Virus record (IMG/VR): IMGVR_UViG_2690315994_000021
DNA: 4,458 nucleotides
Strand: one strand, 5' to 3'
Origin: a virus
Lineage: Duplodnaviria; Heunggongvirae; Uroviricota; Caudoviricetes
Below are positions 618 to 4,458 of this stretch, piece by piece. Positions within the stretch are counted from its first letter, which is position 1. The number at the start of each line of letters is the position of its first letter. The position numbers and the translations under genes were made by a program. Below the pieces are notes generated by a model, which made no database searches, was not told the origin of the DNA, and worked only from the letters and a program-made list of their open reading frames with translations.

Positions 618-671
618 CAATAGCATGACAATAGCAATGGCTATTGGTGTGGTCAATAGCAATTGGTATTG
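618..671 (-). promoter_or_regulatory. Left operator-like cluster with embedded leftward sigma70-like promoter (pL/oL analogue)
   Basis: Heptamer CAATAGC at 618-624, 629-635 and 654-660; inverse GCTATTG at 640-646; GGTATTG at 665-671. These form an 18-bp palindrome CAATAGCAATGGCTATTG (629-646) and an imperfect copy (654-671). On the minus strand, TTGACC (plus 651-656) - 17 bp - TATTGT (plus 628-633) gives a promoter firing leftward from about 620. The same heptamer recurs in the cI-cro intergenic region. Confidence 0.45.
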
Positions 672-907: not shown

Positions 908-932
908 GCCCCGCCATCGCTTTGTACGGGGC
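908..932. terminator. GC-rich hairpin immediately 3' of the SIR2-like gene; candidate intrinsic terminator, possibly bidirectional
   Basis: gccccg (908-913) pairs with cggggc (927-932) around a 13-nt loop. On the plus strand it is followed by a T-rich run (gtttatttaatttatctttt). On the minus-strand RNA it lies just after the stop codon (939-941) and is followed by a moderately U-rich tail. Confidence 0.35.
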
Positions 933-938
933 GTTTAT

Positions 939-1877
939 TTAATTTATCTTTTCAACATTTCCATGAATCAACAAGTCGTAGGCAAGAAATAGTTTCCTAT
1001 ACTGGGTTTTTAAATTGTCAACGTCGCATGTCTTGAATTGAACAAACGCTTCTTTTTTAACATAATCTTCAATCTCCTCTTTGGGGATATTTTTTATGTT
1101 CTTAATGACTATAGACAATTCTTTGTACTTTTTGAACGTTGCATCCTTTATATCTTTGATGTTGGTGTAAATTTTATTTGCATTGATTTTATCTAAGGTG
1201 ATTTTATTGAGCAAGTCGTCTAGTTTTCCGTGGCGTTCAATGCGTTGATTTAGTTTTAACACATATTTAGCTGGCAAACTTAACTCTTTCAAATTACATG
1301 AGGTTATAGTTTTTGAAAATGGAAGTTGTAATGAGTTTACTGAGCCTAATATGAAATCTATGGCTAATTTATTAGATATTTCATTTTTATTAAATAAGTA
1401 ATCTTCAAGATAATTTATTTCTTTAACTTGTGTGAATACATACTTTTTATCGCCTAGAGCAACAACTAAATTTTTTCCTTGTTTAACACTTTCTTCAAGT
1501 CTGTCTAAGTCAGAAGGTGAAACCAATAGAGTATCTAAGTGCCCTTTTTCACCCTCATTAATGATAAGTGTTTTGATGGCTCTTTGATACCTTAAAACAT
1601 CATAAGGTGAGAGCCCTTCATCAACAGCACTGATCTCATCATAGATCTGTTTATAGTTATCTGTTTTAACAGATGTATATGTAATTTGTAGCTGTTGATC
1701 GGTAATCTGTTTTGGTACTACTTCCTGTTCATTCTCTTTATATTCAATCAAAATTATTCTTTCAGCTGATTTTCGACCATCTTCTCTAGGTAGTTGTGAG
1801 GAAAAATCAGAAAGAAGTTTCTTTACATTCCTGTCAGTTAAAGAATATCCAAGAAAAACTATTGGATTTTTAATCAT
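939..1877 (-). CDS. SIR2-family protein, 3' portion: longest start-codon-initiated segment of a longer disrupted gene (frame stays open upstream to 2132)
   Basis: The 312-aa track ORF starts MIKNPIVFLGYSLTDR, which looks like an internal SIR2-like strand and not an N-terminus. Translating the same frame upstream of the ATG gives, with no stop until 2135-2133, ...NINKKAKIIITTNYDAFIKNLL...WSELYKIHGDIKDPH...: a TTNYD motif (2102-2088) and an HG motif (H at 1979-1977). This matches the sirtuin TQNID and catalytic HG motifs. There is no ATG, GTG or TTG in frame between 2132 and 1877, so the track boundary is an artefact of start-codon searching. Confidence 0.75.
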   Translation of the reverse strand: MIKNPIVFLGYSLTDRNVKKLLSDFSSQLPREDGRKSAERIILIEYKENEQEVVPKQITDQQLQITYTSVKTDNYKQIYDEISAVDEGLSPYDVLRYQRAIKTLIINEGEKGHLDTLLVSPSDLDRLEESVKQGKNLVVALGDKKYVFTQVKEINYLEDYLFNKNEISNKLAIDFILGSVNSLQLPFSKTITSCNLKELSLPAKYVLKLNQRIERHGKLDDLLNKITLDKINANKIYTNIKDIKDATFKKYKELSIVIKNIKNIPKEEIEDYVKKEAFVQFKTCDVDNLKTQYRKLFLAYDLLIHGNVEKIN

Positions 1878-2525
1878 GTTAGATAGTATCTTGGCACTAA
1901 TGAGTATAGATTTGTTGTCATATTTTTCGTAATCATCTTTATTTATGATTATTGAGTGTGGATCCTTTATATCACCATGGATTTTGTATAACTCACTCCA
2001 TCCAATAGTATCTTCGAAAAAACCATTATTTCCAATATAGAGTTTTGGAGTTACATTTTGCTCTTGAAGTAAATTTTTTATGAAAGCATCATAATTTGTA
2101 GTGATGATTATCTTGGCCTTTTTATTAATGTTTTAAATGATGCTAATTCATCAAGATTTACATCCTTTCTGATTGTGTTATTAGAAAATCTTTGGCATAT
2201 AGCGTATTTAAATGGTGAAATATCTTCACTAAAAACCCTCTTGGCATCTAGTCCATTTAATTTTAATTTGCCAGTCCTAAACAATAGATTGTAATCATTT
2301 TCAATTTTACTTGCTGCCTCTGTATAAATCTTATGATCGATATCATTATCACTGTTATTTTTATGTGATTCTTTTATTGTTAAAAGATAACTATAGAAAT
2401 CATTTGTGGGATTTGTTATTTTCCAATACTCGTTTAATAGCTCTTCCCACGTTGGGTAGTTCTCTAAATATCTTTTTGAAATGCCTGAGCCAATAAAGAC
2501 TATTGGGTAATTTTTGAATTCAAAA

Positions 2526-2535
2526 TTTTTTTTTT
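2526..2535 (-). repeat. A10 (plus-strand T10) homopolymer spanning codons 3-5 of the SIR2-like gene; frameshift or slippage site
   Basis: Ten consecutive T at plus 2526-2535, read directly. On the coding strand it gives ATG TCA AAA AAA AAA TTT TGA. A 9-A version reads straight into the SIR2 N-terminal domain. Confidence 0.9.
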
Positions 2536-2582
2536 GACATATCCATATACCTTAAGCTCTGCTTGAAACATCCATTCTATAA

Positions 2583-2652: not shown

Positions 2653-3345
2653 CTACCCATGTTTTCTATATGTCTGTGGCATGCTCCCAATAACTTTCCC
2701 AAATATAAATACCCGATTCATTTCGTCTTTTTCGATCGGGTCCCATGGTGAGTAGCTCTTGTTATCAGAGATAACCAGCAGCTTATCCTTCATCATTTGC
2801 AGGCGCTTTACATGGGCTGTGTCGTCGTACAGAAACGCATAGATACCATCACCGTCGAAAGATTTAACAGTGATATCAACGAACAGAAGATCACCTGGTT
2901 CGATCGTTCCTGACATGCTGTCACCGCGTACGTTAATGATGCGGATATTTTCTGCCTTCCTGCCATCGAACATGTGACGAGCATCGTCAAACGAGTACTC
3001 AACCGAGCGTAGGACTTCTACAAACTCACGGTTGATGACACCCGGCCCAGCACTGACTTCTATATCAAGAACGTCAATCTTGAAGTATTTGGAATGGTTG
3101 ACAGCAGGCTTCCCTGATTGTTGACCGTCATTTCTCATCGGGCCTATGCCTGATGAGAGCCACTCTGTTCGAACACCCAATGCATTAGCTATTTCAACAA
3201 TTTTTGTTGAGCCGCGTGCGTTGCCGCTTGTCAGTCTCCAGATTGTGGGTTGAGCTACGCCAGACGCCTTTGCAAGAGCGCCTTGAGACATTCCAGATTG
3301 TTCCATCGCTAGGTTTAAGCGATCAGCAAGAGTTTCTTTTTTCAT
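2653..3345 (-). CDS. CI-like prophage repressor: N-terminal XRE-type HTH plus C-terminal LexA/S24 autopeptidase domain
   Basis: The track ORF 2653..3381 starts at a TTG; the likely true start is ATG 3345 (MKKETLADRLNLAMEQSGMSQGALAKASGVAQPTIWRL...), giving 230 aa. The HTH is in the N-terminus. The C-terminal part has VRGDSMSGTIEPGDLLFVD (Ser nucleophile) and HVKRL (Lys), matching the LexA/UmuD/lambda CI Ser-Lys dyad pattern, with a candidate Ala-Gly cleavage site in EVSAGPG. It is divergent from a Cro-like gene. Confidence 0.85.
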   Translation of the reverse strand: MKKETLADRLNLAMEQSGMSQGALAKASGVAQPTIWRLTSGNARGSTKIVEIANALGVRTEWLSSGIGPMRNDGQQSGKPAVNHSKYFKIDVLDIEVSAGPGVINREFVEVLRSVEYSFDDARHMFDGRKAENIRIINVRGDSMSGTIEPGDLLFVDITVKSFDGDGIYAFLYDDTAHVKRLQMMKDKLLVISDNKSYSPWDPIEKDEMNRVFIFGKVIGSMPQTYRKHG

Positions 3346-3354
3346 AAGTTTTAA

Positions 3355-3447
3355 TTTATACGCTTGCGTATTGATGGTCAAAACACGTTTTGCTATTGAT
3401 TGGATTAATACGCATTGCTATTATCCATTCATTGTAATACCAATAGG
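3355..3447. promoter_or_regulatory. Right operator/promoter region: back-to-back divergent promoters for cI (leftward) and cro (rightward) with operator-like heptamers
   Basis: Rightward: TTGATT (3396-3401) - 17 bp - TATTAT (3419-3424), then AGGA (3445-3448) 7 nt before the cro ATG at 3456. Leftward (minus): TTGACC (plus 3376-3381) - 15 bp - TATAAA (plus 3355-3360), ending about 7-10 nt before the cI ATG at 3345, implying a leaderless or near-leaderless cI mRNA as for lambda pRM. Operator-like heptamers: GCTATTG 3392-3398, GCTATTA 3417-3423, CAATAGG 3441-3447. Confidence 0.45.
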
Positions 3448-3455
3448 AATTGATA

Positions 3456-3683
3456 ATGACAAATCAAACCATTCAACTCGCAATCAGTATTACAGGTAGT
3501 CAAAAACGACTGGCAGATCTATGCGGTGTAGCCCAGCCCACTGTTTGGCGTTGGCTACACGGTGGCGGAATTGATGCCCGCTATGTAATGAAAATTGTCT
3601 CAGCCACTGGTGGAAAGATTAAACCAGCAGATATTCGTCCCGACCTTGCACCATTGTTTAACGCGAGTAATTCTGCCGCCTAA
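3456..3683 (+). CDS. Cro-like HTH regulator (YdaS-like family)
   Basis: The track ORF starts at TTG 3450, but ATG 3456 has AGGA at the right spacing. Protein MTNQTIQLAISITGSQKRLADLCGVAQPTVWRWLHGGG...TGGKIKPADIRPDL matches, from memory, the YdaS/Cro-like pattern (ITGSQ, HTH, TGG, DLRPD). It is divergent from the repressor. Stop is TAA at 3681-3683. Confidence 0.8.
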   Translation: MTNQTIQLAISITGSQKRLADLCGVAQPTVWRWLHGGGIDARYVMKIVSATGGKIKPADIRPDLAPLFNASNSAA

Positions 3684-3707: not shown

Positions 3708-4253
3708 ATGACTATGCAACCACTTACATACCAACAGACTAGCGGATTTAGCCCGACTGCGGTGATAAATCGTTCTCAAACAAAACAGGCGCCAGGCCAC
3801 GAAAAAATCCGTGATGCCGTTCGCGCTTGGTCGGCTGCAGATAATCAGGATGTTGTTGCCGCACTCATTGTGAATGAGTATCGGGAGCAGGGCGGCGGCA
3901 CCATCGATTTCCCTGATGATGTCAGCCGTGCACGCCAGAAGCTGTTCCGTTTCCTCGATAACAAATTCGATTCTGAAAAATACCGAAATAACGTGCGTGA
4001 ACTGACCCCGGCAATTCTGGCGGTACTACCGCTGGAATATCGCGGCCACCTGGTTGAGCAGGATAGCTTCATGGCTCGGTTGGCTGAAATGGATAAGGAA
4101 CTCAGTGAGGCAAAGCAGGCGGTCATTCTCAACGCACCACGCCACCAGAAACTGAAGGAAATGAGTGAAGGTATTGTGTCGATGTTTCGTGTGGACCCGG
4201 ATCTGGCTGGTCCATTAATGGCGATGGTTACCACCATGCTGGGGGCAATATGA
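3708..4253 (+). CDS. CII-position regulatory protein, YdaT-like family
   Basis: 181-aa ORF directly after cro (AAGG upstream; alternative ATG at 3714). Motifs EYREQGGG and LTPAILAVLPLEYRGHL resemble what I recall of E. coli Rac YdaT-family proteins. Family assignment is from memory and not verified. Confidence 0.7.
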   Translation: MTMQPLTYQQTSGFSPTAVINRSQTKQAPGHEKIRDAVRAWSAADNQDVVAALIVNEYREQGGGTIDFPDDVSRARQKLFRFLDNKFDSEKYRNNVRELTPAILAVLPLEYRGHLVEQDSFMARLAEMDKELSEAKQAVILNAPRHQKLKEMSEGIVSMFRVDPDLAGPLMAMVTTMLGAI

Positions 4254-4420
4254 CAGGTTCAGAAATGGCGAAAGCCGGTCTGCGGGAACAGAGCCGACTT
4301 TCAGGTGCAAATCGTAACGCACTCATTGCGGAAGGAATTATGGCAAACACTGTGAACCGCCCCGGTTTTCCTGGAGAGTGTTTTATCTGTGAACTCAGGC
4401 TGCCAGATCATCGTTTCTGA
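4250..4420 (+). CDS. Small hypothetical ORF (56 aa), translationally coupled to the upstream gene
   Basis: Its ATG (4250-4252) overlaps the upstream TGA stop (4251-4253) in an ATGA arrangement. Protein MTGSEMAKAGLREQSRLSGANRNALIAEGIMANTVNRPGFPGECFICELRLPDHRF contains a CxxC. It is below the ORF-track size cutoff and I recognise no homology. Confidence 0.3.
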   Translation: MTGSEMAKAGLREQSRLSGANRNALIAEGIMANTVNRPGFPGECFICELRLPDHRF

Positions 4421-4458
4421 TGGAAGCATAATAAGCTTTTTCTGCTTCTGCCGGAGGG

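What the first reader, a model, noticed from the sequence alone, without database searches (positions are those of the whole stretch)
939..2540. Sirtuin-fold (SIR2-like) candidate anti-phage NADase hidden behind a truncated ORF call
The ORF track shows only a 312-aa protein starting MIKNPIVFLGYSLTD. Reading the minus strand directly shows the gene is about 1.6 kb. The -1 frame near the 5' end encodes a glycine-rich NAD-binding loop (PIVFIGSGIS). The long frame encodes TTNYD and KIHGD. This is the canonical sirtuin order GAGxS, TQNID, HG, so the catalytic Asn and His appear conserved. SIR2-like domains are established NAD-depleting effectors in several anti-phage systems (Thoeris ThsA, DSR, SIR2-HerA, SIR2-pAgo). 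Here the domain sits in a single roughly 533-codon gene with a different, unassigned C-terminal region and no partner gene in the window. That makes it a candidate for an uncharacterised single-gene SIR2 defence architecture.
Basis: partly seen in the sequence, partly recalled or inferred. Interest (0 to 1): 0.85.

Follow-up and report, generated by a model that had tools for sequence, protein, structure and literature searches.

The report
Dead prophage SIR2 defence-candidate gene
This is a broken copy of a prophage gene for a SIR2-type NAD-degrading enzyme that is already catalogued as an untested anti-phage candidate, so it is real and correctly recognised but neither new nor functional in this genome.

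Summary
Minus-strand bases 2540-939 are a 1.6 kb SIR2-like gene split over two frames.

- **Domain:** the repaired protein matches Pfam SIR2_2 (7e-23). It keeps the TTNYD Asn and HG His that align with the ThsA catalytic residues. The model superposes on DSR2, ThsA and KomC SIR2 domains.
- **Not uncharacterised:** it matches PADLOC PDC-S25 end to end (2.5e-234) and phrog_2695. Both are catalogued but untested.
- **The truncated ORF call is correct for this DNA.** The copy carries two homopolymer frameshifts and a Glu155Lys change at a nearly invariant residue. The same three lesions occur in three independent assemblies, so this is a lineage-fixed pseudogene.
- **Context:** the gene sits directly downstream of the prophage cI-type repressor, between cI and oL/pL, where lambda carries rexAB. 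Relatives in Morganella, Leclercia, Streptococcus and Listeria prophages lie in the same lysogeny module with no conserved partner gene.
- **C-terminal half:** it is a family-exclusive helical domain with no significant structural match.

The intact protein is most likely a lysogen-expressed NAD+-depleting exclusion enzyme. That function is inferred, not shown.

The parts
939..2540 (-). SIR2_2-family gene (PDC-S25 / phrog_2695), pseudogene in this window. Intact alleles encode 533 aa from the ATG at 2540-2538. An alternative in-frame ATG lies at 2546-2544.
2526..2535 (-). Frameshift 1: T10 on the + strand (A10 in the coding strand, codons 3-5). Intact alleles have 9.
   Evidence: 3 of 166 complete E. 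coli genomes share the 10-mer; the tract is specific to the E. coli allele.
2119..2123 (-). Frameshift 2: T5 where intact alleles have T6. It separates the glycine loop from the catalytic motifs.
   Evidence: none of 166 complete genomes is identical to the window across 2085-2150.
2076..2078 (-). Codon AAA (Lys) where intact alleles have GAA (Glu155). This is the Glu of TTNYDxxIE, conserved in at least 90% of 45 homologues.
2477..2506 (-). PIVFIGSGIS glycine-rich loop of the Rossmann fold (G17 and G19 invariant).
2088..2102 (-). TTNYD motif (invariant; Asn149 aligns with ThsA N112).
1971..1985 (-). KIHGD motif (His188 conserved in at least 90%, Gly189 invariant; aligns with YKMHGD of ThsA).
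942..1667 (-). C-terminal half (aa 292-533): conserved linker region followed by an all-helical domain found only in this family.
939..1877 (-). The 312-aa residual ORF that gene callers report. It lacks the glycine loop, Asn and His.
2653..3345 (-). cI-type repressor (HTH + S24 peptidase), same strand and immediately upstream of the SIR2 gene. The gap to the SIR2 start is about 110 nt, with no promoter-like or terminator-like site flagged in it.
628..671 (-). pL-like promoter with two 18-bp palindromic operator-like sites (oL).
3353..3450 (.). Divergent pRM-like and pR-like promoters with related operator half-sites (oR).
910..933 (.). GC-rich hairpin just past the stop codon. The scan flags it as terminator-like only for the + strand.

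Best explanation
The locus is an inactivated copy of a single-gene prophage cargo family, held as PADLOC candidate PDC-S25 and PHROG 2695.

**The intact protein (533 aa)**
- The N-terminal half (aa 1-290) is a SIR2_2 Rossmann domain carrying the Asn149/His188 catalytic pair used by the defence NADases ThsA, DSR2 and KomC.
- The C-terminal half (aa 292-533) is a helical domain found only in this family.

**Position.** The gene lies on the same strand directly downstream of the prophage cI-type repressor, between cI and oL/pL. This is where lambda carries rexAB.

**Most likely mechanism (inferred).** The gene is probably transcribed with cI in the lysogen. Infection by another phage would release the SIR2 domain from control by the C-terminal domain. 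The enzyme would then hydrolyse NAD+ and abort the infection.

**State in this genome.** The gene is dead. Two homopolymer frameshifts and a Glu155Lys substitution leave only a 312-aa C-terminal ORF without the catalytic residues.

**Shown versus inferred.** Shown here: family identity, fold, conserved motifs, gene position, pseudogene state. Inferred: transcription from the cI promoter, NADase activity, a sensor role for the C-terminal domain, an anti-phage phenotype.

**Confidence by component.** Family identity and pseudogene state about 0.95. Anti-phage NADase function of the intact family about 0.6.
For: **Identity**
- Pfam SIR2_2 7.4e-23.
- PADLOC PDC-S25 2.5e-234 over positions 1-526 of 528.
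- phrog_2695 5e-201 over the full length.
- 789 homologues of 530-545 aa from Enterobacterales to Firmicutes.

**Catalytic motifs**
- TTNYD and G189 are invariant, and H188 and E155 are conserved in at least 90% of 45 sequences.
- They align to ThsA TTNYD and YKMHGD. PDB entry 8bto carries TTAYD at that position.

**Fold**
- The AF2 model has mean pLDDT 80.8.
- Foldseek finds the SIR2 domains of DSR2, ThsA and KomC at 1e-9 to 1e-8, with TM 0.61-0.65 normalised to the isolated SIR2 chains.

**Context**
- In E. coli the gene lies between the cI-type repressor and Kil/Gam.
- Operator and promoter sites bracket it.
- No promoter-like or terminator-like site is flagged between cI and the gene.
- It lies directly after the repressor in Morganella and Leclercia prophages and in the inducible Streptococcus phage SVep1.
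- It lies in the repressor-integrase module in S. suis, Listeria and phage Javan227.
- No partner gene recurs across these contexts.

**Pseudogene state**
- The window differs from the O55:H7 DEC5B allele at only three positions in 4,352 nt, and all three are in this gene.
- Identical lesions occur in GCA_001284825.1, ERR10017185 and ERR137783. One of these lacks the IS insertion present in the other two.
Against: - No experiment on any member of this family was found. PDC systems are explicitly untested.
- NADase activity is inferred from motifs alone.
- Co-transcription with cI rests on the absence of consensus promoter or terminator hits. That is weak evidence.
- In Bacillus altitudinis the gene sits after the lysis module rather than next to the repressor.
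- Residues 334-370 are conserved but modelled at pLDDT below 50. Part of the architecture is therefore not understood.
Confidence: 0.72

Rival explanations
1. The frameshifts are sequencing or assembly errors in homopolymers, and the gene is intact in the organism.
For: Both indels lie in homopolymer runs. Three of 166 complete genomes also show the 10-mer. The window is a short draft contig.
Against: The same three lesions, including a base substitution, are present in three assemblies from separate read sets. One of those has a different downstream structure, with no IS insertion. None of 166 complete genomes has the T5 allele, so T5 is not a common error at this site.
Confidence: 0.04
2. 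It is an orphan Thoeris-type effector (ThsA-like) that responds to a signalling nucleotide made by a TIR protein encoded elsewhere.
For: The closest solved relatives by sequence are ThsA proteins (1e-11). PADLOC ThsA models hit at 1.7e-20.
Against: The ThsA matches cover only the SIR2 core (aa 147-259 or 147-288). No SLOG domain is detected. The C-terminal half is all-helical with no ThsA match. No TIR or ThsB gene lies within about 6 kb in any of the contexts examined.
Confidence: 0.06
3. The family is not a defence gene. It is a prophage-encoded NAD-dependent protein modifier (deacylase or ADP-ribosyltransferase) that tunes lysogeny, induction or host physiology, which would explain its position next to the repressor.
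For: The gene is consistently placed in the lysogeny module beside the repressor across phyla. No experimental defence phenotype is known.
Against: The protein matches SIR2_2 and not the classical sirtuin family. Every structural neighbour is a defence NADase. Members of the family were picked up by PADLOC because they are embedded in BREX, DISARM or RM systems. The repressor-adjacent site is a classical site for exclusion genes such as rexAB (established knowledge).
Confidence: 0.12
4. The broken copy still makes active protein, by transcriptional slippage or ribosomal frameshifting at the A10 and A5 tracts (a phase-variable or recoded gene).
For: A runs of 9 or more are known slippage sites (established knowledge). 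The A9/A10 length varies among strains.
Against: Two independent frame corrections would be needed, one at a run of only 5. The Glu155Lys change hits a nearly invariant residue. The A tract is absent from homologues in other genera, so it is not a conserved regulatory device.
Confidence: 0.03

Closest known systems
PADLOC phage defence candidate PDC-S25 (models PDLC04967/PDLC04968); the same family as PHROG phrog_2695 and RefSeq WP_000038831.1 'SIR2 family protein'
   Same: The match is full length (2.5e-234, positions 1-526 of 528; phrog_2695 positions 3-530 of 531). It is a single gene of the same length and architecture.
   Different: The copy in this window is a pseudogene: two frameshifts plus E155K. 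The family itself is only a computational candidate with no reported phenotype.
DSR2 (defence-associated sirtuin 2, Bacillus subtilis), a single-protein SIR2 NADase activated by the phage tail tube protein
   Different: DSR2 is about 1,000 aa against 533 aa here. No PADLOC DSR model hits at E of 1 or better. The C-terminal domain shows no specific similarity to DSR2. The trigger is unknown.
Thoeris ThsA (SIR2-SLOG NADase)
   Same: ThsA is the closest solved sequence relative of the SIR2 core. TTNYD and HGD align with ThsA N112 and the HG histidine.
   Different: There is no SLOG domain and no ThsB/TIR partner gene. The C-terminal half is unrelated.
Lambda rexAB (exclusion genes transcribed with cI)
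   Same: Same genomic slot and orientation: between cI and oL/pL, downstream of cI on the same strand, in a lambdoid prophage.
   Different: No sequence or domain relationship. The predicted effector here is an NADase rather than a membrane channel. Co-transcription with cI was not shown.
KomC (Kongming SIR2 NADase)
   Same: The SIR2 core is related by sequence (4e-7) and by fold.
   Different: KomC is a 264-aa SIR2-only subunit of a multi-gene system. Here the SIR2 domain is fused to a 240-aa domain and has no partner genes.

Membership tests
SIR2_2 (Pfam PF13289) / DHS-like NAD-binding superfamily | HMM match above the curated cut-off | tested here: met
   81.7 bits against a cut-off of 24.5, E 7.4e-23, aa 146-285 of the repaired protein.
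SIR2_2 (Pfam PF13289) / DHS-like NAD-binding superfamily | Catalytic Asn and His in the TTNYD and HG motifs, with a glycine-rich loop upstream | tested here: met
   The motifs are present in the window's frames. They are invariant or nearly invariant across 45 homologues and align to the ThsA motifs. In the window they lie on different reading frames from the start codon.
SIR2_2 (Pfam PF13289) / DHS-like NAD-binding superfamily | Rossmann-type SIR2 fold | tested here: met
   The AF2 model of the intact allele has pLDDT around 90 over most of aa 11-160. Foldseek hits to DSR2, ThsA and KomC SIR2 domains have E 1e-9 to 1e-8 and TM 0.61-0.65 normalised to target.
SIR2_2 (Pfam PF13289) / DHS-like NAD-binding superfamily | NAD+ hydrolase activity | not testable with these tools
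   Needs an enzyme assay.
PADLOC PDC-S25 / phrog_2695 | Full-length match to the family model | tested here: met
   2.5e-234 over positions 1-526 of 528. 5.2e-201 over positions 3-530 of 531.
PADLOC PDC-S25 / phrog_2695 | Intact open reading frame | tested here: not met
   Two frameshifts and E155K, reproduced in three assemblies. The window holds a pseudogene of this family.
PADLOC PDC-S25 / phrog_2695 | Anti-phage phenotype | not testable with these tools
   PDC systems are listed as untested. No paper reporting a test was found.
Thoeris (ThsA + ThsB) | SLOG/STALD nucleotide-sensing domain C-terminal to SIR2 | tested here: not met
   ThsA models match only the SIR2 part. There is no SLOG hit in Pfam. 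The C-terminal half is all-helical with no ThsA structural match.
Thoeris (ThsA + ThsB) | Adjacent TIR-domain ThsB gene | tested here: not met
   None in the window or within about 6 kb in E. coli, Morganella, Leclercia, Bacillus, S. suis, Listeria or two Streptococcus phages.
DSR1/DSR2 | Match to DSR family models; a protein of about 1,000 aa with a long C-terminal sensor | tested here: not met
   No DSR model appears among PADLOC hits at E of 1 or better. The protein is 533 aa. Only the SIR2 domain superposes.
DSR1/DSR2 | Activation by direct binding of a phage structural protein | not testable with these tools
   Needs escaper-phage genetics or biochemistry.
SIR2-HerA, SIR2-pAgo and other multi-gene SIR2 systems | Conserved partner gene (HerA helicase, short pAgo/APAZ) in the same operon | tested here: not met
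   No such neighbour appears in any context. Only weak, partial hits to the SIR2-pAgo models.
Classical sirtuin deacylases (Pfam SIR2, PF02146; CobB-like) | Match to PF02146 | tested here: not met
   Only SIR2_2 is reported at E of 1 or better.
Repressor-linked exclusion cargo (rexAB-like slot) | Located between cI and oL/pL on the cI strand of a lambdoid prophage | tested here: met
   Gene order Gam-Kil-oL/pL-SIR2-cI-oR-cro-YdaT-O.
Repressor-linked exclusion cargo (rexAB-like slot) | Transcription from the repressor maintenance promoter in lysogens | tested here: inconclusive
   No consensus promoter or terminator is flagged in the gap of about 110 nt. Consensus scans cannot establish transcription.

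The most novel reading that the evidence does not exclude
The intact family (PDC-S25 / phrog_2695) may be a genuine, still unvalidated single-protein defence. On this reading its family-exclusive C-terminal helical domain is a new kind of phage sensor that gates a SIR2 NADase. Temperate phages from Proteobacteria to Firmicutes would carry it in the repressor operon as a functional replacement for rexAB. Repeated decay of copies would reflect a fitness or autoimmunity cost. The decayed copies seen are this lineage, the A10 alleles, phage BK5-T and phage IPP23.
Probability: 0.55. Interest if true: 0.5.

Novelty: already known. Interest (0 to 1): 0.27.

Why it matters
For this window it matters little. 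The gene is dead, and its family is already flagged by standard defence-annotation tools.

The family itself is a reasonable candidate to test, for four reasons:
- It is a compact single-protein SIR2 system.
- Its second domain is found nowhere else among 1.84 billion protein representatives.
- Temperate phages of very different hosts carry it in the same repressor-linked slot.
- An intact E. coli allele is available in 166 complete genomes.

Identifying its trigger would add one more sensor type to the SIR2 NADase defences. It would also give a clear non-lambda example of cargo occupying the rexAB slot. The lineage-fixed triple lesion is a small data point on how readily prophage defence cargo decays.

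Tried and rejected
1. **Artefact hypothesis: rejected.** Exact look-up of the 312-aa residual ORF found the window's own contig plus two other read sets with identical lesions.
2. **Phase variation at the A tract: rejected as a conserved device.** Only 3 of 166 complete genomes have A10, and the tract is absent in other genera. A first 61-base megablast of the tract found nothing and had to be repeated in distant mode.
3. **Thoeris, DSR, SIR2-HerA or pAgo membership: rejected** on domain and neighbour tests.
4. **C-terminal domain as a module shared with other effectors: rejected.** A profile search of 1.84 billion representatives gave 119 hits, all with the same architecture or as fragments. 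The single exception is an odd aminotransferase fusion.
6. **Literature search for a validated name: nothing found** beyond PADLOC listings.
7. **NCBIfam:** no model matches the protein.
8. **Rfam:** nothing in the window.

Full report
**Observation**

The window is a 4,458-bp stretch of a lambdoid prophage early region.
- The ORF list shows only a 312-aa minus-strand ORF at 939-1877, beginning MIKNPIVFLGYSLTD.
- Three-frame translation of the minus strand shows a short MDMSKKKF* start.
- A second frame then carries KKNFEFKNYPIVFIGSGIS... as far as a stop after ...TLIKRPR.
- The first frame resumes with KAKIIITTNYDAFIKNLL...KIHGD... and runs to the stop at 941-939.
- The frame changes coincide with a T10 run at 2526-2535 and a T5 run at 2119-2123.
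- Removing one base from the first run and adding one to the second gives one ORF of 535 aa, or 533 aa from the second ATG. The second ATG has the better Shine-Dalgarno spacing when the sequence is read directly.

**What the gene is**

- The repaired protein matches Pfam SIR2_2 (7.4e-23, aa 146-285).
- It matches the PADLOC model PDC-S25 almost end to end (2.5e-234, positions 1-526 of 528).
- PHROGs holds the same family as phrog_2695, function unknown (5e-201, full length).
- ThsA models hit only the SIR2 core, and no DSR model hits.
- DNA search finds the locus at 99% identity or better in 166 of 5,426 complete E. coli genomes. It is always a single chromosomal copy annotated "SIR2 family protein".
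- A protein search returns 789 relatives. Full-length homologues of 530-545 aa occur in Enterobacteriaceae, Morganellaceae, Enterococcus, Listeria, Bacillus, Streptococcus and others at 40-75% identity.
- In an alignment of 45 of them, T147 T148 N149 Y150 D151 and G189 are invariant. H188 and E155 are conserved in at least 90%.
- Against solved structures the best sequence matches are ThsA proteins, 1e-11. TTNYD lies on ThsA TTNYD (N112) and KIHGD on YKMHGD. Entry 8bto carries TTAYD at that site. KomC also matches.
- An AlphaFold model of the intact allele has mean pLDDT 80.8.
- Foldseek places its N-terminal half on the SIR2 domains of DSR2, ThsA and KomC (E 1e-9 to 1e-8, TM 0.61-0.65 normalised to the isolated SIR2 chains).

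The SIR2 assignment, with conserved catalytic Asn and His, is therefore well supported.

**The C-terminal half**

- Residues 292-533 were modelled separately. Residues from about 370 onward are confidently all-helical, with pLDDT above 90.
- Foldseek finds nothing significant; the best E-value is 1.2.
- A profile of this half was searched against 1.84 billion representative proteins and found only 119 proteins. All have the domain at about 290-535 of a protein of about 530 aa, or are fragments.
- Intermediate-length hits are N-terminally truncated SIR2_2 proteins. There is one odd aminotransferase fusion.
- The domain is therefore exclusive to this family and is not a module shared with other effectors.
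- Conservation is highest in the SIR2 core and in aa 292-365, and lowest in aa 400-480.
- Residues 334-370 are conserved but poorly modelled. This remains unexplained.

**State of this copy**

- Alignment with intact alleles shows that the window differs from the O55:H7 DEC5B sequence at only three positions in 4,352 nt, all inside this gene. They are the extra T at 2526-2535, the missing T at 2119-2123, and C to T at 2078.
- If placed at random, all three would fall in the 1.6 kb gene with a probability of about 0.05 (my arithmetic).
- The substitution turns Glu155 of TTNYDAFIE into Lys.
- None of the 166 complete genomes is identical to the window over 2085-2150.
- Three of them share the 10-mer, and PGAP then calls an ATA start or a shortened CDS.
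- Exact look-up of the 312-aa residual product shows that the window is contig CYBJ01000081.1 of GCA_001284825.1. The same product occurs in two other read sets, ERR10017185 and ERR137783.
- Both of those carry all three lesions.
- One of them lacks the IS3-family insertion that ends the window at 4353.
- The lesions are thus inherited in a lineage and are not assembly noise.
- The remaining ORF lacks the glycine loop, Asn149 and His188, so this copy cannot be an active enzyme.
- The A9 tract is peculiar to the E. coli allele. It is best seen as a fragile site rather than a regulatory device.

**Context**

- The gene order is Gam, Kil-type FtsZ inhibitor, an operator/promoter region, the SIR2 gene, a cI-type HTH-S24 repressor, a divergent promoter region, a Cro/YdaS-type gene, a YdaT-type gene and an O-type replication gene.
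- Two 18-bp palindromes, CAATAGCAATGGCTATTG, overlap a pL-like promoter at 628-671. Related half-sites surround pRM-like and pR-like promoters at 3353-3450.
- The SIR2 gene thus sits inside the immunity region, on the cI strand directly downstream of cI. This is the slot that holds rexAB in lambda (established knowledge).
- G+C falls to 25-32% across the gene against about 50% in the flanks, as expected of acquired cargo.
- No promoter-like or terminator-like site is flagged in the gap between cI and the gene. This is compatible with co-transcription but does not show it.
- The same placement recurs far away:
  - directly after the repressor in Morganella and Leclercia prophages;
  - directly after the repressor in the mitomycin-induced Streptococcus phage SVep1;
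  - in the repressor-integrase module in S. suis, Listeria and phage Javan227.
- In Bacillus altitudinis the gene follows the lysis genes of a PBSX-like element.
- No neighbouring gene is shared among these contexts. The single-gene reading holds.

**Mechanism**

- The best-supported reading is a lysogen-expressed, single-protein NAD+-depleting exclusion or abortive-infection enzyme.
- It would work like DSR2: SIR2 activity is held in check by, and released through, the C-terminal domain.
- Fold, motifs and position are shown here. Activity, trigger and phenotype are inferred.
- It is not a member of Thoeris, because there is no SLOG domain and no ThsB.
- It is not a member of DSR1/2, because there is no model match and it is half the size.
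- It is not one of the partner-dependent SIR2 systems.

**Known or new**

- RefSeq, PADLOC and PHROGs all already hold this family.
- The PADLOC PDC set is described by its authors as 145 untested candidates found by guilt-by-embedding.
- Later work treats PDC systems as unvalidated.
- The only paper that names PDC-S25 lists it in an O157:H7 strain.
- No functional study was found.

The finding is therefore a correct recognition of a catalogued but untested candidate family, seen here as a dead copy.

**Verdict**

Observation confirmed, interpretation partly supported, novelty low, interest modest.

Noticed in passing
window 4353-4458: The window ends in the terminal sequence of a multi-copy IS3-family element (TGAACCGCCCCGG...). 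It interrupts the O-type replication gene that starts at 4250. A sister assembly with the same SIR2 lesions lacks this insertion.
   Followed up: partly
window 629-671 and 3389-3450: Two 18-bp palindromes, CAATAGCAATGGCTATTG, overlap the pL-like promoter. Related half-sites sit around the divergent pRM/pR-like promoters. There are 7 matches against 0.7 expected by chance. They are probably the operators of this immunity type.
   Followed up: partly
window 2526-2535; L004, L005, L006: The A9 tract at codons 3-5 is 10 long in 3 of 166 complete E. coli genomes from different serotypes. PGAP rescues two of these with an ATA start and truncates the third. The tract is absent from homologues in other genera.
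   Followed up: yes
Lactococcus phage BK5-T 23715-24914; Streptococcus phage IPP23 1943-3004: Other phage copies of the family look decayed. In BK5-T the match spans two annotated ORFs at 75% coverage, and in IPP23 it covers 66%. A 312-aa fragment (P0062) also exists in another lineage. This suggests recurrent loss of the gene.
   Followed up: no
intact protein aa 292-370 (window about 1667-1431, minus strand): The motifs TDNY, EGLSPYxVLRYQ and GKNxVVALGD are strongly conserved across phyla. AlphaFold nevertheless models aa 334-370 at pLDDT below 50. This may be an interface or ligand site that needs a partner or an oligomer.
   Followed up: no
window 939-2560 compared with Streptococcus phage Javan227: A 328-nt stretch of the E. 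coli gene still aligns at 68% nucleotide identity with a Streptococcus phage copy. The gene is 25-32% G+C in a region of about 50% G+C. This hints at transfer from a low-G+C host.
   Followed up: no
P0180: One representative protein joins a DegT-type aminotransferase N-terminus to part of the family's C-terminal domain. It is probably a chimeric or disrupted gene.
   Followed up: no
L003 and L004, the cro/YdaS-type gene equivalent to window 3456-3683: In O157 strains 644-PT8 and 155 the cro-like gene next to this immunity region is annotated as frameshifted, with a 5-bp deletion at window 3530-3534. These prophages are decaying at several points.
   Followed up: no
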